Shown here piece by piece: positions 10,711-46,358 of a DNA stretch of 64,000 bases. The position numbers were made by a program, and so were the translations under genes. How positions within the stretch are numbered: position 1 is the stretch's first letter; every line of letters starts with the position of its first letter. This DNA comes from Selaginella moellendorffii (Eukaryota; Plantae; Lycopodiophyta): positions 216,005-280,004 of the forward strand of contig NW_003314398.1 in assembly GCF_000143415.4 (NCBI RefSeq), in the 5' to 3' direction. Under the pieces are notes generated by a model. The model did not search any database, was not told where the DNA came from, and worked only from the letters and a program-made list of their open reading frames with translations.

Positions 10711-10851
10711 GTCACACCATTTTCAATTCATTGCTAAATTCAATAACTCAAACAAAAAAAAACGAGGACGATGATTTTTGGAATGACAATAACTTTGAAA
10801 AAAATATTGTAATGAGTTCCAATATTGTAATTTCAATTAACTTAGACTTAT

Positions 10852-11061
10852 TGTAGTGCACCTTATCTCTCTTCCCTTAAGCCAACTAAAAAAGGGGCAA
10901 AAAGAGCCCTTAATGACTATTTTATTTCCATTTATCCAAAATTCCCATTTATCCAAAATTCCAAGGATCCACGGGTAACAGTATATTCAAATTTCATCTC
11001 ATGATCATATATGCTACACTCAGAGAAAGACCCAAGATGTACAATTTTAAATTTTAGGGGT
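10852..11061 (-). mobile_element. 3' half of a TRIM (3' LTR plus part of internal region) split by transposon copy 1
   Basis: Reverse complement matches the TRIM LTR at 55887-56048 and its internal region at ~56139-56160. Flanked by CTTAT (10847-10851), the rc of the ATAAG TSD at 32791-32795. Confidence 0.85.
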
Positions 11062-11085
11062 AAGCTCTATTTCGTTAAAGTGGGA
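11062..11085 (+). repeat. Terminal inverted repeat, copy 1 left
   Basis: AAGCTCTATTTCGTTAAAGTGGGA; exact rc at 23551-23574. Confidence 0.95.
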
Positions 11086-11492
11086 ATTGTCATTATCCCA
11101 CTTGTAAAATAAGGTTTCCAAACCTTTATATAGTATATAAATATAACAAAATTCAACTGCATTGAGGCACATGCCATTTTATTTTAAACAAGGAAATGTC
11201 TACTCAATCACTTCTCACTGCTTCACCTCTCTCTTCTCCTTGTCATCGTCGTCCAATTTCTTTCCATCCTTTTAATATTGGCTCAGTTGCTCCGAGTCTA
11301 GGTGGAGCCCAAGTCCCCATTCAATCTTTACTTTCCCCTTATTAATAAAACAACTTCGTAAACTTCCAATAACATGCTGTAACACTTCTAGTATAATGCA
11401 AATCCTCTCAAAGAATTGTCTTTTAATATTAATACAATGGCATGGAACCCCATGCCATAATAAGTTACATTTTTAAATAAATACATGCCATC

Positions 11493-14400
11493 TCAGACTG
11501 TTATTTTTTGCCTCCAACGCCTATACAATAATCTTGGAATTTCATCACTCTCCACACTATCAGGATTTAAACCCAATAGTAATGCCATCTCTTCTCTAAT
11601 ACGTCCACGCTCATGTTCAGTGGTCGAAGAACCCATCCGGTTGAGCAGATTATGGAGATGCGGATAGTGCTTGGCTAGACAATATACATGCCATAAATGA
11701 TGACTGGTGTCTGTCCGATCAAATGGCTTCTGATATACCGTTCCATCTGCCATTTGGTTGATTTCTGCAGCCACCTCCTGGACTAGCCGGTTCTCTATCA
11801 CCATCGCTTCAAGCCGTTTTGCAAGGTCCCCCAGAACATACGGTTTCTTCTCCCTAGTTTCCATACTGCAAGAGATGGGGTGCACTGCATATGTGTGCGT
11901 GTTCGCTGCAGTTTTAATCGGCGAGTCATCGATGATGAGGATTTCACTTGACCTAGCAGTCCGGTTCATCACTACAGCCTCTGCCTTGACGAAGATGGGC
12001 TTGCTACCCCTCACATGGACCATAGTCAAGCAATCCTCCTGCGTTAGGAGAAAGTCAAATGGTAATATTACTCGCGTTTGATCGTGCATCATCTGTAGCA
12101 ACGTTAATGCATTGTGGCGCATCATGGATGTCCAAACTCCCAATTGCAAATTGAACCCGGCCCTCTGTTTTAAGTGTCGCATGGTCATTATTAGATCCCG
12201 CAGTTTCTCCCGTGTGATTAATGTGAATCTGTCTCTTTTGACCAACTTGCGACCGCAGGCTTTGGAGGGTGCAGTGACATTCGAGGACGAGCCACGCTCA
12301 TGGGAGAAAAGGACACCGTTCAGATCAAAAACGATACAGTACTTTCGCCGTGACTCTGAAATGAAATGCGTTAGCATAAAAAATGGTATAAGTCAATTTT
12401 ACCATCTACAATATTAGCGAATGGTGCTCCCGATGGTCGTTCAGAGGGTTTTGGTCGAGGAAACGTGAAGGGCGGAAATACTCTCCTCTGCAATGTGGGG
12501 TCAATCGCATCCGATGGCGTGTGGGCACATGCCATTTCAGCTGTAGACTCTGGTACAACTGGCTCAACAGTGGCATGGGGTGGTTCCGATGGCGTGTGAT
12601 CACACGCCATTTCAGCTGGTGCCTCCGTTGGCAAAGTGGACATGACCGAACAGGCAGCAGGGGCGGTGTAGGGAGGTTCCAACGGCGCGTAGTCAGACGA
12701 TTGGGCACACGTTGGAAATGAGGATACGACCGGCTCGGCGGCTGGGGCGGCCTCATGCGGGTCCAATGGCGCCTGGTCACCGTCAGTTGGATACGTGGAC
12801 AAGATTGACTCAGTGGTATGGGCAGCATCAAGTGGAGCGTGGTCAGCTTGCTTGGCGTTGATATGGATAGTAGCCTCCACCAGCTCTGATGACTCTTGCA
12901 GGCAAGTAGAGTCCACTGGCGGATCCATATGCATGTCCAAATATCTCCCTTTGATTGAGATGGTATCCTCCCTACTGGCTACTAAAAACAAACTCATTAG
13001 CACATTGAATCGACTATACTGTATTTACCATCAACTACTATTGAGGAACTAGGACCGATATCACTTGGGCGCACTGCTGATTCTGAAGGATTGGACATAC
13101 GTTTCGACCCTTGCTTGGCACTATCCTTCCTCGACACTAAAGGCTAGAGTTTGTATCTTAATTCAACTGAATAATCTCTACTTACCATTTCTTCTGCGAC
13201 CTACATGGACAATGTTAGAAATGGTAAAAGGTTAGGAATGGATGTACTATTATTTACCTGATGGTTTGTCTTGTATGACCTTCCTCCGCTGCTCTTTGGC
13301 CACCTCAGGCTGGCCATCATCGTCATCATTGTCATCGTCGTTATTGTGATCGTCACCATTGTGAGGACCATCCAAGTCCTCTTCGTCCTCCTCTTCTTCG
13401 TCCTCCTCTTCTTTGTCCTCCTCTTCGTCCTTCTGCTCTTCCTGCTCATTATCTTTCTCTGGCTCCTCATCCCCCTCTTGCATTTCTTCCATAGGCTGCT
13501 CAGGCTGGATGGCTTGTTCTTCCAGGACCATCTTGGGAAAATCATCTGGCCGAGTCTCCATCTCAAAATACAAGACATCCATAGCCTGTTTTAGTGCGTG
13601 ACCTAGGACCGTATCCTCACCCGACTGTCTTAACATGGTTTCTGCACGTTCTTGCACCCTTCGAAGACGACGAGATGAGAAAAACGTGGCCCTTACTTGA
13701 AAAGCATCCCTCATCCATTGTACCTCTCCATTGAGATTGGGGAAGGGGAGTCCGCCATAGGAATCTGAGTCAGGAGGTGGTGACTGGCTACTTTCACTCA
13801 GCCCTTGATCTGCAATGAATGGCATGAGCACACACGCCATAACCGCGAGGCATTACCTATCATCTTTTCGTTGCCCTTCTTCCTTTTCGAATCAAACGCC
13901 TCTGATCCCGACAACTGTCCAACGTGCTTTCGCTTTTTATGACCACTGTCAGTTTGAGCTTGGCTGGTGCTTGCCTGTTTTGCCTTTGAAGAAGTGTCTC
14001 CTGCAAGGAATGGCATGAGACCACACGCCATTGCAAATATAATTTGTACCTCCTTTTTTCCTATTGCTTGTCTGTTTGTCCTTCTTCGACGCACCACCAG
14101 TGCGCTTTTCAGTCCTCGTGTCTGAATATTCACAACGATCTATAATCAAAATGGCGTGAGGCCTCACGTGACCTTACCTTGTGCAGGTTGTGACCTCGGC
14201 CTAACATCAGTAGCTGTTAACGCCGTTTCAGCATCTGGGGGTGGCCACGCTCCTGCATACAGAGCTTGTGAGATAACATTTAAACTTAAAGTGCGTACTC
14301 ACCAGGTTCGTAGAGAAGATACTGTTTTTCTTTGGCAACTGTAATTATATGCTCCATTGAAGTCACCTCTTCAATGGAGTTTGTCACCGCAACACACGGG

Positions 14401-16864
14401 ACACCCTTGAGTAGTGCGGCTCGAAAGAATAGTCCGCCGCAGTTGTACTCGACAACGCATTTGCCCTTGGAGTCACCCGCTATTGCGTTGAAGACCCAGC
14501 TGAGCATTTCCCATGCTGCACCTGGAGCTTTCTTTGGATTCGAAAGCTCCATAGCCGTCTTCAGTTCCTCAGGCACGGGTAAATTGACCTCCCTCAGATC
14601 AATTCGATCGGCTTTGTTGAACGAAGCTGGGAAGTCACTCCAGTCCCACTCTGCTGCAGGACCAATAACAAGGGCGACTGTGAAGATGCGGACATTCGTC
14701 GGTATCTTCTTCTTAGCCATTATCCCATGGATCTCCCGCATCTCCTTGCCTTTCAACCGAGCCTTCACCTCGTTCAAGGCCTTCCAGAACTTGTGATAGG
14801 ATTCGGAGTCGTAGATCATATAGTGGACTGAAAATTCCACCTCCGCAAGTCCCACCATTAAGTCAATGATGGAGCTGACTTCGTCTGCATGAGTGATCTC
14901 CTCGTTTGTGAAGTCCATCACACAAAAGATGTTCTTGACCTGCTCATCTCCGCGGGAAACGATGCTCCTCCACCTTTGATCCTCATCCGAATTCACGTAT
15001 ACCCGGTAAGGTTCTCGATAGGCCTCTGCTGCGGGGTCGAGCTGTTTCTGAAGCCGGCGGTCGACATCCCTCTTAATGAAATTTGGATACTGATCCAACT
15101 TCTCAGCTTTACTTTTCGTGGCATCCTGCAGCAGATCGATGAACTTGGGGGCCCCCTTCACGTACTCGTCGATGTCTTCATTTGACAAGTCCAGCTCTTC
15201 CATCATCTCTTGCGTGGTGTCGATGCTCACCCTCGCCACGGCCACTTGCTCGAAGATCCAATCCTTCAATAGCGCACGAGCTCTCAGAGTCGTGCACAAG
15301 TCCTCGTATGTCACAATATGGCCGGGAGTCATTTTGGTCTTGTTGAAGACTACCTCACCAAGTAGAAGAGCATTAGCCACTGTTAGAAGGTCGTCGTCGT
15401 CTAGAGACCGCGAGAAACGCAAGGCGTTGAGCTTCAAATCATTGGGCTTCCGGCCGTCCTCCACACCCATTGAGTTTAGCAACTCCCCGTCATGGTACCT
15501 CCTTAGCACATCTACCCATTTGTCAAAAACAACTTTTGTCGCGAGTAGAATGTTATGGATGCTGAGTGTGTCATTGACCCCCAGTGTTTTCGAGAGAAGA
15601 CTCGAGAATTCCTGCAATGGAAATGGCGTGAGGCCACATGCTATGCCACATGCAACGAGGCTTACCTGCCAGGCACTAGTTGCTAGTGCACGTCCTTGTC
15701 CTGGTTTTTGTGGCTTCTTCAGTTGAACCCAGAGCTTCCGTGTTCGTGCCAATGTCTCGTGCAGACCCGATTTGTAGCACGTTTCTTGCTTGACATTCTG
15801 CGCGTGGGAGATGTATATGATAGATCGGAGGGGCGAGTTGCCTTTTATCAGGCGGACAACTCTTGTCTTGAAGACTTTCTTCACCTCCTTGCCCACCATA
15901 ATATCCACAACTATCTGTTGCATCGCCAAGCTAGAATGCTGCTCGGAGACGGCATAGAACCGGATGTTCTGATCGTCCAACACCTTCCTATTGATCAAGT
16001 CTGGAAACCTCGTCTCGCCCTTCATTGTTCGGTAGTAGGGGATCATGTCTGCGATGTCGGGTGTTACTGGACTTGCCAGCATCTTCTGCTTCAGTTTCTC
16101 CACCCACTCATCAGATACTAGCCTGTGGTTGTATTTGCTTTGGATGTCGATACGGCTCATGTCGATTGTATATACTTTGTTGGAATAGTAACAAGTACTA
16201 TTATCTGTGACGATTTTTGCTGCCTCTTCTTGCTCTTTCTGCTCTTTGCGGCTCTTCTTTTTGGTGGGTGTAGTGTTCGAACCCGAGGCAATGGCATCAC
16301 CGAGTAGCTTCTTTTTTGGAGCAGCAGAGTCGGACGTCGGCTTGAGCTTGACCACCCTTTTCTGCTTCGGGGTAGTTTCCAGATCGACCCCCTTCCCCTT
16401 CGCTTCGTGAACTGGAGGCACTCTCAACAGCTCAATGTTGGAATATAGTTTTTGAACATCGCCGTAGGTGAGGTCCGTGGATTCCATGTGATCTTCATAG
16501 ACCCGCACGTCTTTGAAATTGTGGGCCTCCTGGACAACCTCTCCCTAGCTCCCTCTAGGAATTCCTCATAGCCGCTGCCCCCCTCCGGGAAGCCGCTAGG
16601 ATGTGCAAGGTGGATCTTAAAGGCGGATGCTGTCTCTACCACAAGTGCCAGTCCATATTCTTGCATGGAACTGCATGGATCGTCTGTCACTTGGATGAGG
16701 ATCCCCATGCATTCTTTTCTCCCACCATCTGTGTTGTACAGCATCAGATCCTCGCCTTCCATCCCGAAAGTCCAACTGGTGAGCTCCTCCCCCTTCTCTG
16801 CATCCACATTGACAGTGGCTGGAAGAAGAACGCAATTCCTTGCCTGTTCAAAAATGCACAACAA
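11493..16864 (-). CDS. Transposon cargo gene, copy 1: spliced multidomain protein (ParB/Srx-like, MTase-like, acidic and Pro-rich linker, FCP1-like HAD phosphatase); 1-nt frameshift near 16508; true start uncertain
   Basis: Exons ~16843-15666, 15611-14303, 14252-14178, 14121-14050, 14000-13857, 13809-13258, 13200-13186, 13136-13029, 12981-12403 and 12355-11493 join in frame via GT-AG introns of 47-57 nt. The last exon has FCP1/NIF-type motifs IVFDLNGVL, GVWTS, KPIFVK and IIDDSPIK. Confidence 0.8.
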
Positions 16865-18309
16865 TTAGAGCTGACAGATGAAAAGCTAGCAGCTGGAAAT
16901 AACGTGAGGCCACACGCCATTCACCACTGCATCAGATGTCTTGAGGCTGCATCCTAAGATGGCATGAGGCTACACGCCATCTGTAACCGGACTGCACTCG
17001 AGAGCCCAATCGGTGCATGCCAATGTTGCTACTGAATGGCATGTGGCCTCATGCCATTTTCTACTTGGCCTAAAAGACTTACCATTTAAAGCCGAATGGA
17101 GGCGTGATAATCGAGGCCAGACTTGCTGGCGAATGTGCACTATGTGTGCAGCGGATCGTAGCAGCAAGGCTACTCTGCCACTTACAGTTGGAGAGTGGCG
17201 CTGAAATCTCCCGGGATGCCAAGTGGGCTGCGTGTGGGTGGCAGAGTGGGCGGCGGAGTTGGCGGCGAAGTTAGAAACTGGGTGTGTCTTGAAGTGGACG
17301 CCGATGCACACGAGCGCGATGCGAGCGCGAGTGTGATGCAAGCGCGAGTGGACGCCGATGCACACGAGAAACCTGTAGAGAAGGTAGATGAGCGCGAATG
17401 TGAGCGTGATCGTGAGTGGGAGCGCGATGCGAGCGCGAGTACGAAGCAAAATGCAAAACCTAACCTCACACGCGCGAAATGTCACGACGGTTGGTAATCC
17501 CGCCATGTCATCATTCCTCGGACTTGGGCGCCACCATTAATTTCTGGATCGTCGCGCGCATGCATGCACGTGAAATCCAAAAGAAATCCACAACGTCATC
17601 ATTCCTCAGATTGCATGCACGTGAAATCCAAAAGAAAGATCATGATTGGGATATCATTTAATACCCTTGCTATATTTATACCATGCATGATTGGATATTC
17701 CAAAGCATCTTGTATTTCCAAAAATGCCAGATGTTCAGCTAAATAAAGAATGGTATACAAAAAATCCCAAAAAATGCACCAAAAAATGCTCGGTGCCATC
17801 TGGCGTTATCTCTTGAATGGCGTGGGGCCGCATGCCATTTTCAGGGGCACATAGGAGTATATTCCTAGAATATTCTGACGCGCGAGATTTTTTTGAGTTT
17901 TTTGGAGATCCAACCGTTAGATCGCAACTAGATTTTACAGAATGGTATAGAATGTCTTTCTTGATGACCCTGCAAAGAAGCATCTCGATCGGACACCACA
18001 TGAGACCACACAAGCCTTACAATGTTTCAGGGCCATTTGCTATAGATCCGACCGTTATTTTGCTCCAAGATTTTACAGTTTGGTGTGCATTGACCTTTCC
18101 ATCGACACTGCAAAGGGACATCACAATCAGATGTTTGATCACAAGAAACTAACTTCACTAACTCTAGTTTCACCAAGATCTACGTAAGGAGTTATGAAAT
18201 GAAAGGACCCTCTCTATTGAAATGTGTTTATGGTCCTAGGGGCATTGTGACATATCAAAGGATTTTGCATCAAGTTCTGTATTTGCATGTTTATCAAGCT
18301 ACTGAATTG

Positions 18310-18336
18310 CTAAACCCTAAACCCTAAACCCTAAAC
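18310..18336 (+). repeat. Short interstitial plant telomere repeat (CCCTAAA)n / telo-box array
   Basis: CTAAACCCTAAACCCTAAACCCTAAAC; one unit longer in copy 2 at 38746-38779. Confidence 0.85.
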
Positions 18337-19311
18337 ATGTGGCAAATGCTGCATGAAGAAAGATGCCCTTTCTGGGCAAATGCTGTAAGAGGCAGATGCC
18401 GAGCAGATGTATCTCAGGCTAGCGAAGGGGACAAACGAAAGCTAGCTATAAACATGATGGGATGCAAATAGATTACTAGGCTAGTCCTGCAAAAATCAAA
18501 AACCATAATTGAAAACATTGAAAATGCAAAAAGAAAGGTTTATAATATTTTTGAATTTTAAGCAACCAAAGGAATGTTAGGGCATGTGTTTGTAAGTTTA
18601 AAAATGCCTCAACCACTTAAATTCCCAAGTAAATAAAGCTGTTTCTATTTTTGGTACAGGTAAACTTTATAGCGTGTGGGCTCATGCAATTTTGAACCCA
18701 AAAATGCACCTAAAAATGCTCGAGTAGCATTATTCTTTGAATGGCGTGTGGCCTTATATTGCCATAAATGGACGTACACACACAGCATAATTATTCCTTT
18801 ACACGGCGAATAATCTTGGCGTGGATCGCTGATATGGCATGGCAAAGTTCGAATCACTGACATGGCACAACTGGATCAAGGCAAGGACATGATGTGACAT
18901 GGTGTTGCGAGCGGCGCTACGAGTAGTTGCGGTGTTGCGAGCGGCACTGTCTTTGGTGTGGCTACCGCTTCCTCTTGATATTCGGCACTTGTGCTTCCTG
19001 GTATGTTCACCATGGAATGGCTTAGGACCACATTTAGAAATGGCATGAGGCCACATGCCATCTTGGGCCCTTGCAATTTCATGGCTAGCGTATTGTCATG
19101 TATGTTTTTACTTGCCTACAGCTGTGTGTATATCAAGATGGCATGAGGCCTCATGCCAATTTTGTGAATGCGAAATTTCACGTGGGTGTCAATAGCATGT
19201 TTGAATAATGGCATGTGGCCTCATGCTATTGAGGTTGTTTGGTATGTTATGATTTAGGCCATTCTCCAATCATTTTTTGTATGGTCTTAACTTCTTTTTT
19301 GCACTTTCAGA

Positions 19312-22300
19312 ATGGCCTTCACGGTTGGGGAAAAGGTTTACATTTTGAATGGTGGGAAAAGAGTTGCAAAAGGGACCCTTGTGTCTATGGATCGGAACTT
19401 TGTTATACACTGTCAAAGGCTTGGGGAAGGCAATGCTGCTGTATCAATAGAGACTGTCTTCGATGGGAATGTGGTTGCTATTGAACGAGGAGAGATGGTC
19501 GTCGGGGTAAATGTTGTTGTTGCCTTGAAAAATCTTCAGAAGAAAGCAGATGTTGGGGACAGCGCAAGTGCGACGCATGTTCCCTCCGTGGATCTTAAGA
19601 ACCGTGCTACATGGATTCAGGCAAAAGTGTTTCTAAACAACCCCGAGGGGGAGGTGGTAGCTGAGGGCTTAGCCACAGTTGTCGATCCAAGAGATGCGGT
19701 TGCTAATCAAGAATTGGGCTGGGATGATATTGGAGTTGCGATTTTAGAGGTTGTTGACACAGAAGAAAACAGTCTGACTATTGGAAGCATTGTGCGGTGG
19801 AAATTGAGGCACTTAGTGTTTGAGAATGTGAAGGATTCACAATCAAACACCACTACAACTGATGACAGAACATCTCTTCATGGGAAAAGAAAGTACACCT
19901 TCCTAAAGCGCAGCCAAAGGGATCTGAGCAACGAACCGAAAAGGCAGAAAATGGCGATGGAGGTTCAAATGGTCTCGACAGTTGCTTGTTGCAAGAGGAG
20001 GTGCTGTCAACATGCTGATTGGGATGCTATTGAAGAGGAGAAAGCAAGATACAAGACATTGTCCTGGAAGGCAGCTCGCAATTTTGTGTATGAGGCATTA
20101 CGGTCATCTGTTGATGCTTCAGAACATCAGGTGGGGGGCATGGTCTTCCAGAGGGGTTTGGTCTGCAAGAAGGCATGGAGAATCATTTATGGAGTCCCTC
20201 GAACCACATTCTACACAATCAAAACTGAGTTCGAGGAACAAAGGGTTCAACAGGCAGTCCATGGGAACGACGGTACGCACAAAACCAGGGGTCATGTTGT
20301 ATATGGAGAGGCAATCTTCAAGAGGTTTGTCGAGACATGTAGCGAGCAGCAACCACATAAAACCCGCCTCTTGGAAGATGGAACACGAGACACCCAACGA
20401 GTTCTCCCTTCCATGTATACCAAGGGGGCCATATTGGAAGATGTGAATCGGGAACTCCAGAGTAATGGCTACAGGAAGCTGAGCCAATCTAGATTTAGTA
20501 GATTGTGGAGCAACAGGTTCAAGGATGTGAGTATAGGAAAGTACTCCAGCTTTTCAAAGTGTGACGAGTGCACTGCTATCAAAATGGCTTTGTCGAAGAA
20601 TTCTTGCAGCGCTCAAGAGCGAGAGACGTTGGTTAGAAGGCGGCTCGACCACAACATCGAGCAGAGAAGCTGCAGGACTGCATATTATCATAACAGGATT
20701 CTCTCCATGGAGAGACCTGACTCTTACCTCTGCATCATCCACGACAAAATGGACCAGAAAAAGACGTGCTTACCTCGACTCAATCCTGCCCCCAAGGCAA
20801 TCTCTTCATCCATGCAGCTGCCTGTGTCTCTGTTTGGCATAATCGCTCATGGGCATGGTGCCCAGAACTATGGGAACTTCTTTGTACCTCTATGTGCAAA
20901 CATGATGATTGCGTCCCTAGCAAAACACTTAAGGTCTCTGCAAAGTGCGCAGACTGAGCTGAACGGCCAACCCTTGCATAAGGCCCTTGTCAATCGAACC
21001 CCATACAGGGTTCAGCTGGAGGAGGAGCAAAGGCTTGCAGTATCGCGTGGGGCCCCATGCCATCCCAGTGAATATGTTGGCCGTCAGATTGTAGGGTTAT
21101 CACGTGAGGCCTCATGCCATTCCGACGAGGCTGGTCGCCCGGTGAATGCACAGCCTCATCCAAACGAAGCAGAATCTCAAGGAAGTTCTTGCGGCCGATG
21201 TGGCCTTCCACCCCATCTTCTGCTCCAAACAGACAATGCTGGCAGTGAGAACAAAAACATGTACGTCTTCGCGTACTTGGCGATGCTTGTTGCCAAAGGC
21301 ATATTTGAAACGGTTACACTTGGCTTTCTCATGGTTGGGCACACTCATGAAGACGTCGATGCCATGTTCAGTCACCTGGCAGAGTCCCTCCGGCGATCCA
21401 ATGTCCTCACCCTCCCACAACTCTACGATGAATTCCAAAATTGCATCAAAGGCACTGTTGAAGCTGCACTTCTGACAGAGGTTCCAGACTTTAAGGGGTT
21501 TGTAAGAGGCTACATCAGGGATGGATCCGAAACGCTGATTGGCCACTCCAAGCCTCTTCAGTTTCATTTCAGCATGCGTGACAGTGCTCCAATGATGAGG
21601 TACAAGATGAGAGAATGGGACACAGTGTGGCTGCCAGTGGACGGCATTGAACTCTTCAAGAGAGATCCCATAACTGGGGAACCTATGATTCCTCAGGGTT
21701 CCCCACGGCCGATGCACCCGGATGGACTCAAAGACCAGGAAAGTATAGTGGCCGGGATTAGACAGCATATTGCCTTCTGGAAGAGGGGGTTGGTGTTTGG
21801 TGGAGAATCCTATTTTCAGAGGTGCAAGCCTTTGCTCGAATACTGGGAGAAGATTATATCTGCTATCCAAAATGGGCCGGTTGTATATGAAGAATTGGAA
21901 GAGTCCTTTTGGCCAGAACCCAGAGCACCAGATAGTAGCGGAACAATGTCCTCTGGAAATGCAGTGACAGATAACGATGTTGAGGATCACTATTGTGGGC
22001 CGAGGAACAAGAAGCCGGATTCAGCATTCAATCCAGTACAGGTCTGCAAAGGAATGGTCGTGCTTGTCAGACCCAGTAATAAAAAACAAATGATATGGGT
22101 GGGGCGCTGCATCACTGATGCAGAGGAGGACGCGGAAACTAACTCCTTCAATGTAACTGTGGAGTGGTTCAAGCCAAGTTCCGGATATACGAAGGATTGC
22201 CTAGAAAAGAGATAGGTGCTGAATCCAAGGGATCCCAGCATGAGCATATCGGTGGATAATGTTGTGCATGGTTGGATGCGGAAGCAGAGTGCCACCATCA

Positions 22301-22441
22301 CCTTGCCAGACCATGCAAGAGATGCAGCAAGAGCATTCATAACTCGGGTTCAAGGTGAGATTCATTAATATTCCTTTACAAAGTTTCTAATGTATTTTAT
22401 TTCAAGGTGAACAATCCGAATCTGAATCAGAGGAGGCTTGA
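19312..22441 (+). CDS. Sola-like DDD transposase, copy 1 (967-aa ORF to TAG at 22213-22215; frame continues to 22354, intron 22355-22406, stop at 22441)
   Basis: CDEC..H zinc motif and the triad motifs IIHDKMDQKKT.LP (20734+), LQTDNAGSENKN (D at 21232) and FLMVGHTHEDVD (21337-21360), resembling Sola-type DN..NKN / GH....D cores. Located inside TIRs. Confidence 0.85.
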
Positions 22442-22656
22442 TATAGTGTGTGAGGTAAAACAAAGATGATGTGACATATGCATTTACCAATCACACGTGC
22501 ATAAATCTAATAATATGGCGTGTGGCCCATATTAATGGCACATAAACCCATATTGTGGGCTTACGTGCTTTATGTACCATCATTCCCTTGCAGCGTGTGT
22601 GTTGGTTTCCTTTTATAACACAACGAACTCCATATTTTAGGGTGAAGAGCGTTCTC

Positions 22657-22914
22657 ATGGCAAGCACAAAATTTGTAAGTGAGGCAGAAAAGGAGACGGA
22701 GAAGGAGATAGGTGAAGATGTAGAATATATAAGTCTTCCAAACTTCCCGTACTATACTCCAGGTGATCATTTTTCTGAACAAACGGCAACATTAACAACT
22801 ATCGAGAACGCCCCAGTAACGTCAGAGACAACAATCCAAAGCAAAACAACTGACCCGGAGAAGGATGATAGTACCGCTGAGAGTACCAAAAAGGAGGTGT
22901 CCACTAGCGCTTAG
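22657..22914 (+). CDS. Small Ser/Thr/Glu-rich ORF of unknown status inside the transposon
   Basis: ATG 22657 to TAG 22914; open in both copies (33712-33969 minus); nearby splice-like sites; no recognisable domain. Confidence 0.25.
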   Translation: MASTKFVSEAEKETEKEIGEDVEYISLPNFPYYTPGDHFSEQTATLTTIENAPVTSETTIQSKTTDPEKDDSTAESTKKEVSTSA

Positions 22915-23550
22915 GCTTATAATGGCGTGTGCCCTCATGCCATTTACTTGATCACCAAATACCTTTTTCCCTTTGCACTAGTATATCTTAATACCGGTCT
23001 GAGAAATAGAATGGCATGTGCCCTCAGGCCTTTTACTAAATCACCTTTGAAAGAAATGCAAGCCTCTATGTTGTAAAAAAAAGGTACTAGAGAAATTCCT
23101 TAATAATATGAATGTTATTTAGTTTCATGAAAATACACTAAGGGTCAAATGAGTTAAATGACTTCTCCAGACTAGCAATGCCTCTTGCTACACCTTCACA
23201 ATTAGATTCATTAGAAAAAGATAACATTGAATAATATCTAAATGTTCTCACCATTAAGTTATATGTCTGGCTAATAGGAATGACGTTCATCTTGGAAAGC
23301 TCACCACACGCTCAATGAACAAACAAATAGTGTGTGCGCGCATGCCATCGCTCTTCTTTAGCTTCAGATTCGGCTTGTTCACCTTGACAATGAGATTTAT
23401 TATACAACTAGATGGACTCAGTCTGGACACAAAGCCACCGCGCTAGTCACCATGCCCCAGATATGTCTAGCCCCTGGACAAAAAACATATAATTTCACGT
23501 CATTTTCAAATACTTGAAAATTTGTACCTAGTCCCATTTTACTGAATAAA

Positions 23551-23574
23551 TCCCACTTTAACGAAATAGAGCTT
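23551..23574 (-). repeat. Terminal inverted repeat, copy 1 right
   Basis: TCCCACTTTAACGAAATAGAGCTT. Confidence 0.95.
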
Positions 23575-27558: not shown

Positions 27559-27694
27559 ACATCATTGCACTTGCAAAGGAGTAAATAGTTAAATAGAAGG
27601 TAGAGAGTATACAATTATCATTCAAGACCTTTTTATGTCTAGACTTTACGAAGTGTAAGGAACATAGGAATGCATATGCTTCTTACAAGCATAT

Positions 27695-29301: not shown

Positions 29302-29790
29302 CATATATATTACATCTTCATCAACACCTTACACTAGGAATCTAAAATAGACAATCACATACACTATACAAGCCTTAGTATTGTTGAATCATATAAGACT
29401 TTTGGAGCCAACTAGAATTTCCAAGATTATTGATGTTTATTCTCTATCAATAATATAAACTTATTATAATTTATATAATTAATAAAAATAACATATTTTT
29501 TATTTGATATACTTAAGAGTGTTTTTTTTCACAATATTGCTCATAATACTTTGTATCTCTATTTTTGTTTTTACCATCTCAAAAAATATTTCATGGTAGT
29601 TTTTCAGGTGCATGGTGTTGTAGTGTATCACAAGAGCATATGTACTATTATACTGATCGTCAACTTGTTTTCACTAAAGCCAATAAACATAAAAAGCATT
29701 TCTTGAATGTCATAAAATTACAATTTTCTAAAATAAGTAGGAGAGCATTCTTTTTCGTTATACCCTCTATCATTGTTTTTATCTCCAACT

Positions 29791-33051: not shown

Positions 33052-34184
33052 AAGCTCTATTTCGTTAAAGTGGGATTTATTCAGTAAAATGGGACTAGGT
33101 ACAAATTTTCAAGTATTTGAAAATGACGTGAAATTATATGTTTTTTGTCCAGGGGCTAGACATATCTGGGGCATGGTGACTAGCGCGGTGACCTTATGTC
33201 CAGACTGAGTCCATCTAGTTGTATAATAAATCTCATTGTCAAGGTGAACAAGCCGAATCTGAAGCTAAAGAAGAGCGATGGCATGCGCGCACACACTATT
33301 TGTTTGTTCATTGAGCGTGTGGTGAGCTTTCCAAGATGAACATCATTCCTATTAGCCAGACATATAACTTAATGGTGAGAACATTTAGATATTATTCAAT
33401 GTTATCTTTTTCTAACGAATCTAATTGTGAAGGTGTAGCAAGAGGCATTGCTAGTCTGGAGAAGTCATTTAACTCATTTGACCCTTAGTGTATTTTCATG
33501 AAACTAAATAACATTCATATTATTAAGGAATTTCTCTAGTACCTTTTTTTTACGACATAGAGGCTTGCATTTCTTTCAAAGGTGATTTAGTAAAAGGCCT
33601 GAGGGCACATGCCATTCTATTTCTCAGACCGGTATTAAGATATACTAGTGCAAAGGGAAAAAGGTATTTGGTGATCAAGTAAATGGCATGAGGGCACACG
33701 CCATTATAAGCCTAAGCGCTAGTGGACACCTCCTTTTTGGTACTCTCAGCGGTACTATCATCCTTCTCCGGGTCAGTTGTTTTGCTTTGGATTGTTGTCT
33801 CTGACGTTACTGGGGCGTTCTCGATAGTTGTTAATGTTGCCGTTTGTTCAGAAAAATGATCACCTGGAGTATAGTACGGGGAGTTTGGAAGACTTATATA
33901 TTCTACATCTTCACCTATCTCCTTCTCCGTCTCCTTTTCTGCCTCACTTACAGATTTTGTGCTTGCCATGAGAACGCTCTTCACCCTAAAATATGGAGTT
34001 CGTTGTGTTATAAAAGGAAACCAACACACACGCTGCAAGGGAATGATGGTACATAAAGCACGTAAGCCCACAATATGGGTTTATGTGCCATTAATATGGG
34101 CCACACGCCATATTATTAGATTTATGCACGTGTGATTGGTAAATGCATATGTCACATCATCTTTGTTTTACCTCACACACTATA

Positions 34185-37100
34185 TCAAGCCTCCTCTGAT
34201 TCAGATTCGGATTGTTCACCTTGAAATAAAATACATTAGAAACTTTGTAAAGGAATATTAATGAATCTCACCTTGAACCCGAGTTATGAATGCTCTTGCT
34301 GCATCTCTTGCATGGTCTGGCAAGGTGATGGTGGCACTCTGCTTCCGCATCCAACCATGCACAACATTATCCACCGATATGCTCATGCTGGGATCCCTTG
34401 GATTCAGCACCTATCTCTTTTCTAGGCAATCCTTCGTATATCCGGAACTTGGCTTGAACCACTCCACAGTTACATTGAAGGAGTTAGTTTCCGCGTCCTC
34501 CTCTGCATCAGTGATGCANNNNNNNNNNNNNNNNNNNNNNNNNNNNNNNNNNNNNNNNNNNNNNNNNNNNNNNNNNNNNNNNNNNNNNNNNNNNNNNNNN
34601 NNNNNNNNNNNNNNNNNNNNNNNNNNNNNNNNNNNNNNNNNNNNNNNNNNNNNNNNNNNNNNNNNNNNNNNNNNNNNNNNNNNNNNNNNNNNNNNNNNNN
34701 NNNNNNNNNCTGGCCAAAAGGACTCTTCCAATTCTTCATATACAACCGGCCCATTTTGGATAGCAGATATAATCTTCTCCCAGTATTCGAGCAAAGGCTT
34801 GCACCTCTGAAAATAGGATTCTCCACCAAACACCAACCCCCTCTTCCAGAAGGCAATATGCTGTCTAATCCCGGCCACTATACTTTCCTGGTCTTTGAGT
34901 CCATCCGGGTGCATCGGCCGTGGGGAACCCTGAGGAATCATAGGTTCCCCAGTTATGGGATCTCTCTTGAAGAGTTCAATGCCGTCCACTGGTAGCCACA
35001 CTGTGTCCCATTCTCTCATCTTGTACCTCATCACTGGAGCACCGTCACACATGCTGAAATGAAACTGAAGAGGCTTGGAGTGGCCAATCAGCGTTTCGGA
35101 TCCATCCCTGATGTAGCCTCTTACAAACCCCTTAAAGTCTGGAACCTCTGTCAGAAGTGCAGCTTCAACAGTGCCTTTGATGCAATTTTGGAATTCATCG
35201 TAGAGTTGTGGGAGGGTGAGGACATTGGATCGCTGGAGGGACTCTGCCAGGTGACTGAACATGGCATCGACGTCTTCATGAGTGTGCCCAACCATGAGAA
35301 AGCCAAGTGTAACCGTTTCAAATATGCCTTTGGCAACAAGCATCGCCAAGTACGCGAAGACGTACATGTTTTTGTTCTCACTGCCAGCATTGTCTGTTTG
35401 GAGCAGAAGATGGGGTGGAAGGCCACATCGGCCGCAAGAACTTCCTTGAGATTCTGCTTCGTTTGGATGAGGCTGTGCATTCACCGGGCGACCAGCCTCG
35501 TCGGAATGGCATGAGGCCTCACGTGATAACCCTACAATCTGACGGCCAACATATTCACTGGGATGGCATGGGGCCCCACGCGATACTGCAAGCCTTTGCT
35601 CCTCCTCCAGCTGAACCCTGTATGGGGTTCGATCGACAAGGGCCTTATGCAAGGGTTGGCCGTTCAGCTCAGTCTGCGCACTTTGCAGAGACCTTAAGTG
35701 TTTTGCTAGGGACGCAATCATCATGTTTGCACCCCCGCCACCCCATAGAGGTACAAAGAAGTTCCCATAGTTCTGGGCACCATGCCCATGAGCGATTATG
35801 CCAAACAGAGACACAGGCAGCTGCATGGATGAAGAGATTGCCTTGGGGGCAGGATTGAGTCGAGGTAAGCACGTCTTTTTCTGGTCCATTTTGTCGTGGA
35901 TGATGCAGAGGTAAGAGTCAGGTCTCTCCATGGAGAGAATCCTGTTATGATAATATGCAGTTCTGCAGCTTCTCTCCTCGATGTTGTGGTCGAGCCGCCT
36001 TCTAACCAACGTCTCTTGCTCTTGAGCGCTGCAAGAATTCTTCGACAAAGCCATTTTGATAGCAGTGCACTCGTCACACTTTGAAAAGCTGGAGTACTTT
36101 CCTATACTCACATCCCTGAACCTGTTGCTCCACAATCTACTAAATCTAGATTGGCTCAGCTTCCTGTAGCCATTACTCTGGAGTTCCCGATTCACATCTT
36201 CCAATATGGCCCCCTTGGTATACATGGAAGGGAGAACTCGTTGGGTGTCTCGTGTTCCATCTTCCAAGAGGCGGGTTTTATGTGGTTGCTGCTCGCTACA
36301 TGTCTCGACAAACCTCTTGAAGATTGCCTCTCCATATACAACATGACCCCTGGTTTTGTGCGTACCGTCGTTCCCATGGACTGCCTGTTGAACCCTTTGT
36401 TCCTCGAACTCAGTTTTGATTCTGTAGAATGTGCTTCGAGGGACTCCATAAATGATTCTCCATGCCTTCATGCAGACCAAACCCCTTTGGAAGACCATGC
36501 CCCCCACCTGATGTTCTGAAGCATCAACAGATGACCGTAATGCCTCATACACAAAATTGCGAGCTGCCTTCCAGGACAATGTCTTGTATCTTGCTCTCTC
36601 CTCTTCAATAGCATCCCAATCAGCATGTTGACAGCACCTCCTCTTGCAACAAGCAACTGTCGAGACCATTTGAACCTCCATCGCCATTTTCTGCCTTTTC
36701 GGTTCGTTGCTCAGATCCCTTTGGCTGCGCTTTAGGAAGGTGTACTTTCTTTTCCCATGAAGAGATGTTCTGTCATCAGTTGTAGTGGTGTTTGATTGTG
36801 AATCCTTCACATTCTCAAACACTAAGTGCCTCAATTTCCACCGCACAATGCTTCCAATAGTCAGACTGTTTTCTTCTGTGTCAACAACCTCTAAAATCGC
36901 AACTCCAATATCATCCCAGCCCAATTCTTGATTAGCAACCGCATCTCTTGGATCGACAACTGTGGCTAAGCCCTCAGCTACCACCTCCCCCTCGGGGTTG
37001 TTTAGAAACACTTTTGCCTGAATCCATGTAGCACGGTTCTTAAGATCCACGGAGGGAACATGCGTCGCACTTGCGCTGTCCCCAACATCTGCTTTCTTCT

Positions 37101-37323
37101 GAAGATTTTTCAAGGCAACAACAACATTTACCCCAACGACCATCTCTCGTTCAATAGCAACCACATTCCCATCGAAGACAGTCTCTACTGATACAGCAGC
37201 ATTGCCTTCCCCAAGCCTTTCACAGTGTATAACAAAGTTCCGATCCATAGACACAAGGGTCCCTTTTGCAACTCTCTTCCCACCATTCAAAATGTAAACC
37301 TTTTCCCCAACCCTGAAGGCCAT
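34185..37323 (-). CDS. Sola-like DDD transposase, copy 2 (970-aa ORF 37323-34411, partly in N gap)
   Basis: Same motifs as copy 1; retains VPLWGGGGANM where copy 1 has a 12-nt deletion; same TAG at 34411-34413. Confidence 0.85.
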
Positions 37324-38745
37324 TCTGAAAGTGCAGAAAAGAAGTTAAGACCATACAAAAAATGATTGGAGAATGGCCTAAATCATAACATACCAAACAA
37401 CCTCAATAGCATGAGGCCACATGCCATTATTCAAACATGCTATTGACACCCACGTGAAATTTCGCATTCACAAAATTGGCATGAGGCCTCATGCCATCTT
37501 GATATACACACAGCTGCAGGCAAGTAAAAACATACATGACAATACGCTAGCCATGAAATTGCAAGGGCCCAAGATGGCATGTGGCCTCATGCCATTTCTA
37601 AATGTGGTCCTAAGCCATTCCATGGTGAACATACCAGGAAGCACAAGTGCCGAATATCAAGAGGAAGCGGTAGCCACACCAAAGACAGTGCCGCTCGCAA
37701 CACCGCAACTACTCGTAGCGCCGCTCGCAACACCGCAACTGCTCGTAGCGCCGCTCGCACAAACTGCCACTCGCATAAACTGCCGCTCGCAATGGCGCTC
37801 GCAATGCCGCAACCGCTCGTAGACGCATAAACCACAGCCCACAACGCCGCTTACACAAGCAGCGCTCACTGCGCTCAGCGGAACCAAGAACACGGCGCAC
37901 AAAAATGATAGACCTAGGAATGAGTTCGAGAATTCAAAAATAACACACGCTTGAACGTCACATCAAATCCTCTGACAAACCAGATCTTATGATTCCTCTG
38001 ACAAATTTCAAACTGAGTAGCTTCTAGACTTTGCTGTCGGAGGTTGAACTTTGTCACATCATGTCCTTGCCTCGATCCAGCTGTGCCATGTCAGTGATTC
38101 GAACTTTGCCATGCCATGTCAGCGATCCGCGCCAAGATTATTCGCCGTGTAAAGGAATAATTACGCTGTGTGTGTACGTCCATTTATGGCAATATAAGGC
38201 CACACGCCATTCAAAGAATAATGCTCGACATAAGGCCACACGCCATTCAAAGAATAATGCTAGTCGAGCATTTTTTGGTGCATTTTTGGGTTCAAAATGC
38301 ATTGAGNNNNNNNNNNNNNNNNNNNNNNNNNNNNNNNNNNNNNNNNNNNNNNNNNNNNNNNNNNNNNNNNNNNNNNNNNNNNNNNNNNNNNNNNNNNNNN
38401 NNNNNNCTATAAAGTTTACCTGTACCAAAAATAGAAACAACTTTATTTACTTGGGAATTTAAGTGGTTGAGGCATTTTTAAACTTACAAACACATGCCCT
38501 ACTTACATTCCTTTGGTTGCCTAAAATTCAAAAATACTATAAACCTTTCTTTTTGCATTTTCAATGTTTTCAATTATGGTTTTTGATTTTCGTAGGACCA
38601 GCCTAGTAATCTATTTGCATCCCGTCATGTTTATAGCTAGCTTTCGTTTGTCCCCTTCGCTAGCTTGAGATACATCTGCTCGGCATCTGCCTCTTACAGC
38701 ATTTGCCCAGAAAGGGCATCTTTCTTCACGCAGCATTTGCCACAT

Positions 38746-38779
38746 GTTTAGGGTTTAGGGTTTAGGGTTTAGGGTTTAG
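38746..38779 (-). repeat. (TTTAGGG)n interstitial telomere-like repeat
   Basis: GTTTAGGGTTTAGGGTTTAGGGTTTAGGGTTTAG. Confidence 0.85.
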
Positions 38780-40574
38780 CAATTCAGTAGCTTGATAAAC
38801 ATGCAAATACAGAACTTGATGCAAAATCCTTTGATATGTCACAATGCCCCTAGGACCATAAACACATTTCAATAGAGAGGGTCTTTTCATTTCATAACTC
38901 CTTACGTAGATCTTGGTGAAACCAGAGTTAGTGAAGTTAGTTTCTTGTGATCCCGCATCTGATTGTGATGTCCCTTTGCAGTTTCGATGGAAAGGTCAAT
39001 GCACACCAAACTGTAAAATCTTGGAGCAAAATAACGGTCGGATCTATGGCAAATGCCCCTGAAACATTGTAAGGCTCGTGTGGTCTCATGTGGTGTCCGA
39101 TCGAGATGCTTCTTTGCAGGGTCATCAAGAAAGACATTGTATACCATTCTGTAAAATCTAGTTGCGATCTAACGGTTGGATCTCCAGAAAACTCAAAAAA
39201 ATCTCGCGCGTGTCAGAATATCCTAGGAATATACTCCTATGTGCCCCTGAAAATGGCATGCGGCCCCACACCATTCAAGAGATAATGCCAGATGACGCCG
39301 AGAATTTTTTGGTGCATTTTTTGGGTTCAAAATTGCATGAGCCCACACGCTATAAAGTTTATCTTTGCCAAATAGAGAAAAGTTTATCTGTGTCATGTGA
39401 GGTAGTTACAGTCCTTTGTGCTCGGCATCTGCCTCTTGCAGCATTTGCACTGAAAGGGAATTTTTCTCCATTCAGCATTTGGCCCTGAAAATGGCATGCG
39501 CCCACACGCCATTCAAGGAATAACGCCACAGGACGCCTGGATTTTTGGGTTTAAAATGTTTAGGGTTTTTTGGGTTTTTTCAAAATATTTTGGGTCCAAC
39601 GTTTTTTGGGTTTCTTTGGTTCAAAATTGCATGAGCCCACACGCTATAATATTGATTTAAGAGAAAAATAGAAACAGATAGAATTTCTTTATTTAGCTGA
39701 ACATCTGCCATTTTTGGAAATACAAGATGCTTTGGAATATCCAATCATGCATGGTATAAATATAGCGAGGGTATTAAATGATATCCCAATCATGATCTTT
39801 CTTTTGGATTTCGCGTGCATGCAGTCCGAGGAATGATGACGTTGCGGATTTCTTTTGGATTTTGCGTGCTTGCATGCGCGCGGCAATCCAGAAATTAATG
39901 GTGGCGCCCAAGTCCGAGGAATGATGACGTGGCGGGATTACCAACCGTTGTGACATTTCGCGCGTGTGAGGTTAGGTTTTGCATTTTGCTTTGTACTCGC
40001 GCTCGCACACTCGCGCTCCCGCTCGCATCGCGCTCCCACTCGCGATCACGCTCACTTCTCTACAGGTTTCTCGTGTGCATCGGCGTCCACTCGCGCTTGC
40101 ATCACACTCGCGCTCGCATCGCGCTCGTGTGCATCGGCATCCACTTCAAGACACACCCAGTTTGTAACTTCGCCGCCAACTCCGCCGCCCACTCCACCAC
40201 CCACACGCAGCCCACTTGGCATCCCGGGAGATTTCAGCACCACTCTCCAACTGTAAGTGGCAGAGTAGCCTTGCTGCTACGATCCGCTGCACACACAGTG
40301 CACATTCGCCAGCGAGTCCGGCCTCGATTGTCACGGCCTCCATTCGGCTTCAAATGGTAAGTCTTTTAGACGAAGTAGAAAATGGCATGAGGCCACATGC
40401 CATTCAGTAGCAACATTGGCATGCACCGATTGGGCTCTCGAGTGCAGTCCGGTTACAGATGGCGTGTAGCCTCACGCCATCTTAGGATGCAGCCTCAAGA
40501 CATCTGATGCAGTGGTGAATGGCGTGTGGCCTCACGTTATTTCCAGCTGCTAGCTTTTCATCTGTCAGCTCTAA

Positions 40575-45927: not shown

Positions 45928-46358
45928 GATGGCATGTATTTATTTAAAAATGTAACTTATTATGGCATGGGGTTCCATGCCATTGTATTAATATTAAAAG
46001 ACGATTCTTTGAGAGGATTTGCATTATACTAGAAGTGTTACAGCATGTTATTGGAAGTCTACGAAGTTGTTTTATTAATAAGGGGAAAGTAAAGATTGAA
46101 TGGGGACTTGGGCTCCACCTAGACTCGGAGCAACTGAGCCAATATTAAAAGGATGGAAAGAAATTGGACGACGATGACAAGGAGAAGAGAGAGGTGAAGC
46201 AGTGAGAAGTGATTGAGTAGACATTTCCTTATTTAAAATAAAATGGCATGTGCCTCAATGCAGTTGAATTTTGTTATATTTATATACTATATAAAGGTTT
46301 GGAAACCTTATTTTACAAGTGGGATAATGACAATTCCCACTTTAACGAAATAGAGCTT

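What the first reader, a model, noticed from the sequence alone, without database searches (positions are those of the whole stretch)
13810..17082. Mini-introns that each consist largely of one palindrome
Introns 13810-13856 (47 nt), 14001-14049 (49 nt), 14122-14177 (56 nt) and 15612-15665 (54 nt, in-frame) each contain exactly one motif copy. Further GT..AG intervals around the copies at 16899, 16959 and 17036 look similar (GTAAGT donor at 17082). Either introns serve as coding-neutral parking places for binding sites, or the hairpin helps define or create these introns (introner-like).
Basis: partly seen in the sequence, partly recalled or inferred. Interest (0 to 1): 0.75.

Follow-up and report, generated by a model that had tools for sequence, protein, structure and literature searches.

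The report
Transposon binding sites parked in introns
Four predicted 47-56-base introns in a plant jumping gene each hold one copy of a 22-base palindrome that recurs 21 times along the element; the palindrome is likely a DNA docking site for the element's own ParB-like protein, and in three of the introns one arm likely doubles as the splicing branch point.

Summary
The four GT..AG intervals and their single palindromes are there (minus strand); the palindrome fills 39-47% of each. Introns 1-3 must be removed to keep the frame, and a Selaginella homolog lacks exactly intron 4's 18 residues. No junction read was found. The introns lie in the accessory gene (predicted ParB/Srx fold, degenerate methyltransferase-like part) of a 12.5-kb Sola1-like transposon with 21 motif copies: 10 intronic, 7 other non-coding, 4 coding. 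The two arms do not co-vary, four motif-free mini-introns are the same size, and intron 4's position looks old. The motif is therefore likely a double-stranded DNA site parked in existing introns, not an introner or a selected hairpin. In 3 of 4 introns its CTCAY arm sits where motif-free introns carry their branch-like CTAAC or CTCAC, so it likely has a second use in splicing. The copies at 16899-17036 fit one 239-nt intron better than three. The gene pairing is published (Ectocarpus Sola1-1), intronic motifs are known from VANDAL/VANC, and this scan noted similar palindrome-bearing elements in three other genomes. The branch-point overlap did not appear in my searches.

The parts
11062..23574 (.). 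Sola1-like DNA transposon, copy 1 (12.5 kb), two divergent genes, 21 palindrome copies
   Evidence: TIRs and flanks; self-BLAST; motif scan
33052..46358 (.). Copy 2 of the element, inverted, 96-99% identical, with N gaps; 23 motif hits
11062..11085 (+). Left terminal inverted repeat, 24 bp
23551..23574 (-). Right terminal inverted repeat, 24 bp
11493..17085 (-). Gene B (predicted, about 1,590 aa by my exon sum): ParB/Srx-fold domain, helical region, degenerate methyltransferase-like part, acidic tract, NIF/FCP1-like domain; copy 1 has a 1-nt frameshift at 16507
15795..16184 (-). Predicted ParB/Srx-fold domain (about P0002 residues 121-250)
   Evidence: VIA Z 8.5 to 6ky4 (rmsd 2.8, 85 aligned), 8.3 to PadC 6ryk (3.1, 99), 7.4 to KorB 8qa8 (2.9, 92); Foldseek Noc/ParB rows, E 0.011 or worse
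13810..13856 (-). Mini-intron 1 (47 nt), motif 13819-13840, CTCAT with A at -16
14001..14049 (-). Mini-intron 2 (49 nt), motif 14010-14031, CTCAT with A at -16
14122..14177 (-). Mini-intron 3 (56 nt), motif 14151-14172 next to the donor; no CTNAY at -15..-18
15612..15665 (-). Mini-intron 4 (54 nt, in frame), motif 15623-15644, CTCAC with A at -18; position shared with homologs
14253..14302 (-). Motif-free mini-intron (50 nt), CTCAC at -17; needed for the frame
13201..13257 (-). Motif-free mini-intron (57 nt), CTAAC at -15 (predicted)
12982..13185 (-). Motif-free intron (about 204 nt; acceptor uncertain)
12356..12402 (-). Motif-free mini-intron (47 nt), CTAAC at -16 (predicted)
16844..17082 (-). 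Predicted first intron of gene B (239 nt), directly after the ATG, with motifs 16899, 16959 and 17036
   Evidence: unspliced in one contig and 3 reads of a diverged copy
19001..19311 (+). Predicted 5' intron of the transposase gene (311 nt) with motifs 19040, 19138 and 19208
   Evidence: splice-site inspection only
19313..22215 (+). Gene A: DDE transposase-like ORF (Pfam DUF7869, E 1e-41); stop at 22213-22215 where homologs continue
12514..12610 (-). Two motif copies in a coding, low-complexity stretch of gene B
21042..21120 (+). Two motif copies in a coding, variable linker of the transposase
17817..18690 (.). Two motif copies between the divergent genes (17817, 18669); more in copy 2 through local duplication
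11156..11458 (.). Motif copies near the left end (11156, 11437)
22922..23348 (.). Motif copies near the right end (22922, 23011, 23327)

Best explanation
The 22-bp palindrome is likely a double-stranded DNA site for the transposon's own predicted ParB-like accessory protein, placed in likely ordinary, pre-existing mini-introns where it costs no coding change, and in three of four its 3' arm likely also serves as the branch point. Shown: the element, its TIRs, 21 copies of ATGGCRTG-W-G-SS-C-W-CAYGCCAT, their positions, independent variation of the arms, and the frame dependence on introns 1-3. Inferred: (1) the introns are spliced; (2) about 50 nt is the host's normal intron size, since motif-free introns in the same gene are 47-57 nt; (3) a dimer of gene B's product reads two 11-bp half-sites, as ParB, Noc and KorB do (recalled); (4) sites accumulated wherever they were tolerated (introns, UTRs, promoter, two variable coding linkers) and so cover the whole element; (5) in a 50-nt intron a 22-bp insert must overlap a splice signal, and the placement that survives puts its CTCAY 16-18 nt before the acceptor. 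The bound protein would mark or shield the element against silencing, probably not by methylation, because the catalytic motif is absent.
For: 44 of 45 window hits lie inside the two element copies. In copy 1: 10 copies in 1,303 nt of predicted intron, 7 in 3,338 nt of other non-coding DNA, 4 in 7,872 nt of coding DNA; binomial p 1.8e-5 against the element and 0.008 against other non-coding DNA. Positions 6/17 do not co-vary (Fisher p 1.0), and positions 9/14 form Watson-Crick pairs in 7 of 21 copies, with 11 being A/A or T/T. Half-sites tolerate CG (16) and CA (24) but hardly TG (1) of 42. CT[AC]A[CT] with its A at -15..-18 occurs in 6 of 7 gene-B mini-introns, against 0 of 20,000 shuffles; random placement of the motif gives 3 or more of 4 with p 0.007. 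BLASTP to XP_024528744 opens an 18-residue gap exactly over intron 4. Four of four N-terminal homolog clusters lose similarity at a V 21-27 residues past the same anchor and end soon after, and two of two C-terminal ones begin just behind it. Eight of the top nine VIA rows map to model residues 119-256, led by sulfiredoxin, PadC and KorB. The same gene layout is described for Ectocarpus Sola1-1 (PMC12477816), and intronic target motifs for VANC21 (PMC5735166).
Against: The model is weak overall (mean pLDDT 49), Foldseek E-values are 0.011 or worse, Z near 8 is borderline by the tool's own note, and no DNA-reading HTH was identified. One contig of a run guessed to be RNA (X12, 16685-17077) and 3 X10 reads, all from a diverged copy, run unspliced through the predicted first intron. 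Contigs of X1 (kind guessed) cross or start inside three predicted introns. The -15..-18 window was chosen after seeing the data, intron 3 does not fit it, and I drew the intron set knowing the motif positions. On the sense strand, non-Watson-Crick 6/17 pairs are G-U in 7 copies and A-C in 2, a hint of RNA pairing, and introns 1 and 2 do fold (z -1.8 and -2.7). Motif cores are less diverged between the two copies than other non-coding DNA, but not significantly (2/292 vs 87/4200, p 0.13). In copy 2, intron 2's CTCAT is changed, next to an N gap. The age of intron 4 rests on protein ends; homolog DNA was not seen.
Confidence: 0.58

Rival explanations
1. The introns are parking places as above, but the palindrome is read by the transposase, which would activate or pair its own copies.
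For: Copies lie near both ends and around the transposase 5' end. A 2026 preprint reports sequence-specific activation by the AtMu1 transposase and clustered TnpA motifs (10.64898/2026.08.24.746577; abstract and passages).
Against: The motif is not in the 24-bp TIRs, and 16 of 21 copies lie more than 1 kb from either end. A long two-fold site fits the predicted ParB-type protein.
Confidence: 0.13
2. The palindrome acts as an RNA hairpin that tunes splicing of gene B by hiding or exposing the branch point.
For: In introns 1 and 2 the predicted stem pairs the candidate branch A (z -1.8 and -2.7); sense-strand G-U outnumbers A-C 7 to 2.
Against: No covariation (Fisher p 1.0), frequent T/T or A/A at 9/14, and introns 3 and 4 do not fold better than shuffles (z -0.2 and +0.5). 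Eleven of 21 copies lie outside predicted introns.
Confidence: 0.1
3. The palindrome is a compound site for host transcription factors that the element has collected to drive its genes.
For: Three copies sit in each predicted first intron and more between the two genes. Parts resemble plant G-box, RY and TCP words (recalled, not tested).
Against: A 22-bp site with several near-invariant columns is long for a host factor, and only 1 weak hit (score 10.1) lies outside the two element copies.
Confidence: 0.08
4. The mini-introns are introners: a small mobile palindromic unit inserted itself and created them.
For: Introns 1, 2 and 4 share the motif plus a 9-11-nt tail to the acceptor, and introns 1 and 4 share a short 5' word (p 0.06).
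Against: None of 6 flank pairs is significant before correction (best p 0.05-0.06). Motif-free introns have the same size and branch spacing, intron 4's position looks old, and most copies are not in mini-introns.
Confidence: 0.06
5. The intervals are not spliced: gene B ends near 14286 and the downstream frames are unrelated or decayed.
For: Unspliced contigs of uncertain kind cross some predicted introns. The S. moellendorffii homolog ends at about the same place as the unspliced ORF.
Against: Removing four consensus introns joins the frames into an open reading that continues into the acidic tract; the 18-residue gap in the homolog fits intron 4 exactly; branch-like words are tightly spaced.
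Confidence: 0.05

Closest known systems
Sola1-1_Ec32 of Ectocarpus and its ParB-like/methyltransferase accessory gene (PMC12477816; passages and supplement rows seen)
   Same: Large TIR element with a 4-bp TSD; a second gene on the strand opposite to the transposase with a ParB-like domain followed by a methyltransferase(-like) part; the paper proposes that such proteins bind and modify their own element.
   Different: Here: 12.5 kb, 24-bp TIRs (against 21.5 kb and 282 bp), a land plant, no [DNS]PP[YFW] motif, an added NIF/FCP1-like domain, and a candidate target motif. The passages and rows I saw name no motif or intronic site for Sola1-1_Ec32.
VANDAL21/VANC21 anti-silencing system of Arabidopsis (PMC5735166; passages seen)
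   Same: A transposon-encoded accessory protein targets a motif enriched in the element's introns, intergenic and terminal non-coding regions.
   Different: VANC motifs are 9-bp, non-palindromic and arrayed in tandem in one orientation in a MuDR element; binding and demethylation are shown. Here the sites are single 22-bp palindromes, some in coding DNA, binding is untested, and the protein is unrelated in fold.
Bacterial ParB-parS, Noc-NBS and KorB-operator systems (structures matched; binding mode recalled)
   Same: Predicted ParB/Srx fold; several dispersed palindromic sites.
   Different: The GxxRxxA CTP motif (recalled) reads EQHS here and GQHS in 4 of 4 homologs; no HTH was shown; the setting is a eukaryotic transposon.
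Introner elements (search listing and abstracts only; definition recalled)
   Same: Short introns that share a sequence block near the branch point.
   Different: The shared block is also abundant outside introns, the flanks are not significantly alike, and at least one intron position appears old.

Membership tests
U2 spliceosomal introns | GT..AG ends with exon consensus | tested here: met
   4 of 4 have AG|GT donors (5-7 of 8 consensus letters) and CAG acceptors
U2 spliceosomal introns | Branch-point word near the 3' end | tested here: met
   CTCAY with A at -16, -16 and -18 in introns 1, 2 and 4; intron 3 has candidates at -36 and -25 only
U2 spliceosomal introns | Removal restores the frame or the homolog alignment | tested here: met
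   Frame for introns 1-3; 18-residue gap for intron 4
U2 spliceosomal introns | Junction reads | tested here: inconclusive
   8 of 23 listed runs laid; no joint; the three raw RNA runs have no depth over the four introns
Introners | Introns alike over their whole length | tested here: not met
   0 of 6 pairs of 5' flanks below p 0.05 (best 0.052 and 0.059)
Introners | Recent gain, absent from homologs | tested here: not met
   Intron 4 only: homolog ORFs break at the same place; inferred from proteins. Introns 1-3 lie in a region without homologs
Introners | Many copies in unrelated host genes | not testable with these tools
   No genome held
Sola1 DNA transposons | TIRs and 4-bp TSD | tested here: met
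   24-bp TIRs; 4-bp duplications GGGT and TCTT, swapped between the copies; one empty site matches an uninterrupted repeat. AAAGTGG at TIR positions 16-22 also stands in the insect Sola1 TIR (compared by eye)
Sola1 DNA transposons | AWWT/AWDT target preference (PMC3845634) | tested here: not met
   0 of 2 sites fit; Ectocarpus Sola1-1 is also listed with another bias. Filed as Sola1-like only
Sola1 DNA transposons | Transposase groups with Repbase Sola1 proteins | not testable with these tools
   No Repbase here. Pfam DUF7869 and conserved acidic motifs in 10 aligned proteins; the homologs looked up are unnamed or hypothetical
ParB-like/methyltransferase transposon accessory proteins | Gene opposite to the transposase inside the TIRs | tested here: met
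ParB-like/methyltransferase transposon accessory proteins | ParB/Srx fold | tested here: met
   VIA Z 8.5 (rmsd 2.8, 85 aligned), 8.3 (3.1, 99), 7.4 (2.9, 92) on a region of moderate pLDDT; Foldseek agrees, above E 0.001
ParB-like/methyltransferase transposon accessory proteins | Methyltransferase fold | tested here: inconclusive
   Residues 672-752 match five methyltransferases at Z 4.2-4.9 only; no methyltransferase family hit in Pfam, PHROGs or NCBIfam
ParB-like/methyltransferase transposon accessory proteins | Catalytic [DNS]PP[YFW] motif (recalled) | tested here: not met
   Absent from P0002 and from 6 of 6 homologs scanned
VANC/TnpA-type self-targeting systems | Motif specific to the element and enriched in its non-coding DNA | tested here: met
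   (window only)
VANC/TnpA-type self-targeting systems | Protein binds the motif and changes silencing | not testable with these tools
   Needs EMSA, ChIP or methylome data

The most novel reading that the evidence does not exclude
A eukaryotic parS/ParB-like system with a double code: the transposon's ParB-like protein loads at palindromes spaced along the whole 12.5 kb, and the same palindromes, once transcribed, are the branch points of its own gene's introns and can fold over them.
Probability: 0.15. Interest if true: 0.8.

Novelty: new variant of a known kind. Interest (0 to 1): 0.45.

Why it matters
Sola1-type elements with a ParB-like accessory gene have been proposed to bind and mark their own DNA, but the passages I saw name no target. 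This element offers a precise candidate, a 22-bp two-half-site motif, that can be tested by EMSA or DAP-seq. It also shows how a compact genome can fit a long protein-binding site into 50-nt introns by letting it take over the branch point, a case of one sequence serving as both DNA site and splice signal. The missing catalytic motif suggests a lineage in which binding, not methylation, is the retained function.

Tried and rejected
RNA: no RNA holder listed. I laid 8 of 23 listed runs. X8, X9 and X10 (raw RNA, about 12 in 100 read) have no depth over the four introns; X2 and X4 cover the element flat and unspliced and look like DNA; X21 holds only two short shared pieces. This says nothing for or against splicing. 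No genome was held, so no genome-wide motif or intron survey was possible. Word-based homolog searches for gene B found nothing. Of 9 HMMER hits I dropped 2 as chance: P0031 (RTX repeats) and P0034 (low-complexity repeat). The single metagenome scan returned a bacterial glycosyltransferase locus, L001, a chance match, so no homolog DNA was seen. Single-sequence AlphaFold failed (pLDDT 31). Sequence searches of the PDB gave nothing significant. The Atlas did not answer. Rfam on 17000-17400 gave only chance-level rows. The exon behind the first intron shows no significant likeness to P0033 (E 0.13). Even spacing of the sites: the largest gap is 1,834 nt, p 0.002-0.06 depending on a clustering threshold chosen afterwards; suggestive only. 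Three separate mini-introns at 16899-17036 were rejected on donor strength. Papers not held and not seen: Bao 2009, Petroll 2025, PMC3166216. Supplements of bioRxiv preprints are closed and may bear on the novelty claim.
Full report
1. Observation. The four intervals are GT..AG on the minus strand, with AG|GT donors and CAG acceptors, and each holds one copy of a 22-bp imperfect palindrome, ATGGCRTG-W-G-SS-C-W-CAYGCCAT. The motif makes up 39-47% of each, so 'largely' is too strong. Reading from 16490, the frame reaches 13258 in 2 of 32 subsets of five candidate introns; both remove introns 1, 2, 3 and a motif-free 50-nt intron at 14253-14302. Intron 4 is in frame, but BLASTP against the RefSeq protein XP_024528744 of Selaginella moellendorffii opens an 18-residue gap exactly over it. 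The three copies at 16899-17036 fit one 239-nt intron (16844-17082) directly behind an ATG. It ranks first by donor match among 140 frame-keeping models, and the other donors match 2-5 of 8 consensus letters. If translation starts further down, the frame does not constrain this region.

2. Context. The introns lie in a 12.5-kb element (11062-23574) with 24-bp TIRs and a second, inverted copy at 33052-46358 that is 96-99% identical. The 4-bp target duplications are swapped between the copies, and one empty site matches an uninterrupted repeat elsewhere in the window. Gene A (+) is a DDE transposase-like ORF (DUF7869; 12 homologs; 10 sequences aligned). Gene B (-) carries the introns. An AlphaFold model of its long ORF with 14 aligned rows is poor overall (pLDDT 49) but moderate over residues 121-250. 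There, 8 of the top 9 VIA rows align, led by sulfiredoxin (Z 8.5, rmsd 2.8, 85 aligned), PadC (8.3, 3.1, 99) and KorB (7.4, 2.9, 92); Foldseek ranks Noc and ParB first, at E 0.011 or worse. The end of that ORF resembles a SAM-binding motif only weakly (Z 4.2-4.9), and [DNS]PP[YFW] is absent from it and from 6 of 6 homologs. A NIF/FCP1-like domain closes the predicted protein. The host is likely a spikemoss-type plant.

3. The motif belongs to the element, not to the introns. Of 45 hits in the window, 21 are in copy 1, 23 in copy 2 and 1 weak one outside (matrix built from 20 of the copies). In copy 1, 10 lie in predicted introns (7.7 per kb), 7 in other non-coding DNA (2.1 per kb) and 4 in coding DNA (0.5 per kb). 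The coding copies sit in a low-complexity stretch of gene B and in a linker of the transposase that varies in length among homologs. Both genes have a predicted first intron with three copies. Four predicted mini-introns without the motif are 47-57 nt, so small size is not due to the palindrome. S. moellendorffii intron lengths are reported to cluster with those of fungi rather than with other land plants (PMC6157073, one passage); PMC5310277 gives a mean of 285 bp for all its introns and no mode in the passages seen.

4. DNA site or RNA hairpin. Across 21 copies, positions 6 and 17 vary independently (A-T 6, A-C 3, G-T 8, G-C 3, other 1; Fisher p 1.0), and positions 9 and 14 pair in 7, with 11 being A/A or T/T. 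The 42 half-sites read ATGGCRTGWGG with several near-invariant columns, and they accept CG and CA but almost never TG. This is the pattern expected of two half-sites read on double-stranded DNA. Against it: sense-strand G-U outnumbers A-C 7 to 2, and introns 1 and 2 fold better than shuffles (z -1.8 and -2.7), while introns 3 and 4 do not. Conservation of the cores between the two copies is higher than in other non-coding DNA but not significant (p 0.13, with two stretches left out, 14000-14100 beside an N gap of copy 2 and 18680-18730).

5. Overlap with the branch point. Six of seven gene-B mini-introns have CT[AC]A[CT] with its A 15-18 nt from the 3' end (0 of 20,000 shuffles; window chosen after seeing the data). 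In the three motif-free ones the word is CTAAC or CTCAC. In introns 1, 2 and 4 it is the CTCAY of the motif's 3' arm, and random placement and orientation of the motif would give 3 or more of 4 with p 0.007. In intron 3 the motif abuts the donor instead. The predicted stems in introns 1 and 2 would pair the branch A, so a hairpin would hinder rather than define splicing (inference).

6. Not introners. The 5' flanks are not significantly alike (best p 0.052 and 0.059 of 6 pairs). Of 9 HMMER hits for gene B, 7 were kept. Four of four N-terminal clusters lose similarity at a valine 21-27 residues past a shared anchor, as an unspliced GT donor would read, and end soon after; two of two C-terminal clusters begin just behind; and two Selaginella gene models differ by two residues at this junction. 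Intron 4's position therefore likely predates this family's motif. This rests on protein ends, because no homolog DNA was obtained, and introns 1-3 lie in a region without homologs.

7. RNA. I laid 8 of 23 listed runs and found no joint at any predicted intron. The three raw RNA runs have no depth over the four introns, which leaves them untested. One contig and 3 reads from a diverged copy cross the predicted first intron unspliced, and contigs of a run of uncertain kind cross or start in three introns.

8. Mechanism. Shown: anatomy, motif distribution, independence of the arms, frame dependence. Inferred: splicing; binding of the 22-mer by a dimer of gene B's product, by analogy with ParB, Noc and KorB (recalled); accumulation of sites wherever they were tolerated; and selection, within 50-nt introns, for the placement that keeps a branch point. 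The outcome of binding is most likely protection or activation of the element, as for VANC21, and probably not methylation. I give this reading 0.58.

9. Known systems. Ectocarpus Sola1-1_Ec32 has the same two-gene layout, with a ParB-like plus methyltransferase protein proposed to bind and modify its own element (PMC12477816; passages and supplement rows). VANC21 binds a 9-bp motif in introns and other non-coding parts of VANDAL21 (PMC5735166; passages). TnpA and the AtMu1 transposase act through clustered motifs (bioRxiv 10.64898/2026.08.24.746577; abstract and passages). ParB-linked methyltransferases in eukaryotes are reviewed in PMC4738411 (passages). Sola1 is listed for Physcomitrella (PMC9033089; table passage), and its AWWT/AWDT target preference (PMC3845634; passages) is not met here, so I file the element as Sola1-like only. 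PMC6839031 (passages) added nothing. Three earlier notes of this scan describe such elements with palindrome arrays in other genomes (unchecked, not independent support). Two others describe protist introners with a palindrome beside the branch point, a useful contrast. Ten literature searches (listings read) showed no report of a target motif for a ParB-type transposon protein, nor of such a site serving as a branch point. The library lacks most subscription papers, including Bao 2009 and Petroll 2025.

10. Verdict. This is a new variant of a known kind, whose fresh element is the likely double use of the site as a branch point. Interest 0.45.

Noticed in passing
window 10812-11061, 23575-33051, 55893-56170: The 4-bp target duplications are swapped between the two inverted element copies. 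The flank at 32802-33051 and the reverse of the flank before 11062 continue each other as in an uninterrupted repeat near 55893-56170, so the 9.5 kb between the copies has been inverted by recombination between them (or by the assembly).
   Followed up: yes
window 17149-17188: A 40-nt piece matches a very abundant RNA with other flanks (over 100 reads in each raw RNA run). The loose ends look like the 3' end of 25S rRNA (recalled; Rfam gave no hit). It may be a captured rRNA fragment in gene B's 5' region.
   Followed up: partly
window 16507, 20893, 22213-22215: Copy 1 is damaged: a 1-nt frameshift in gene B and a 12-nt loss in the transposase relative to copy 2 and three runs; both copies stop at 22213 where homologs continue.
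   Followed up: partly
window 11493-12392 (-): Gene B is predicted to end in a NIF/FCP1-like phosphatase domain (Pfam PF03031, E 5e-6), an unusual partner for a ParB-like protein; it might act on RNA polymerase II (speculation).
   Followed up: no
proteins P0030, P0039-P0041: Selaginella moellendorffii has annotated genes (EFJ30523, XP_024528744 and others) matching the part of gene B behind the ParB-like domain, possibly a domesticated copy; two gene models differ by two residues exactly at the intron 4 junction.
   Followed up: partly
window 11103 to 23531: One X4 contig joins the two ends of the element, possibly a short non-autonomous derivative or a jump between the TIRs.
   Followed up: no
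window 18741 and 22515: Two half-sites of the motif without a good partner arm, one inside a predicted 3' intron of the transposase gene.
   Followed up: no
window 18310-18336, 38746-38779: Plant telomere-type 7-mer arrays between the two genes in both copies.
   Followed up: no
window 58282-60187: Fragments of an LTR retrotransposon (RT, RNase H, gag).
   Followed up: no
window 27890-30194, 61196-62421: Arrays of 6-, 12- and 23-nt units (GAGATGGAGTCC type) in another repeat family.
   Followed up: no
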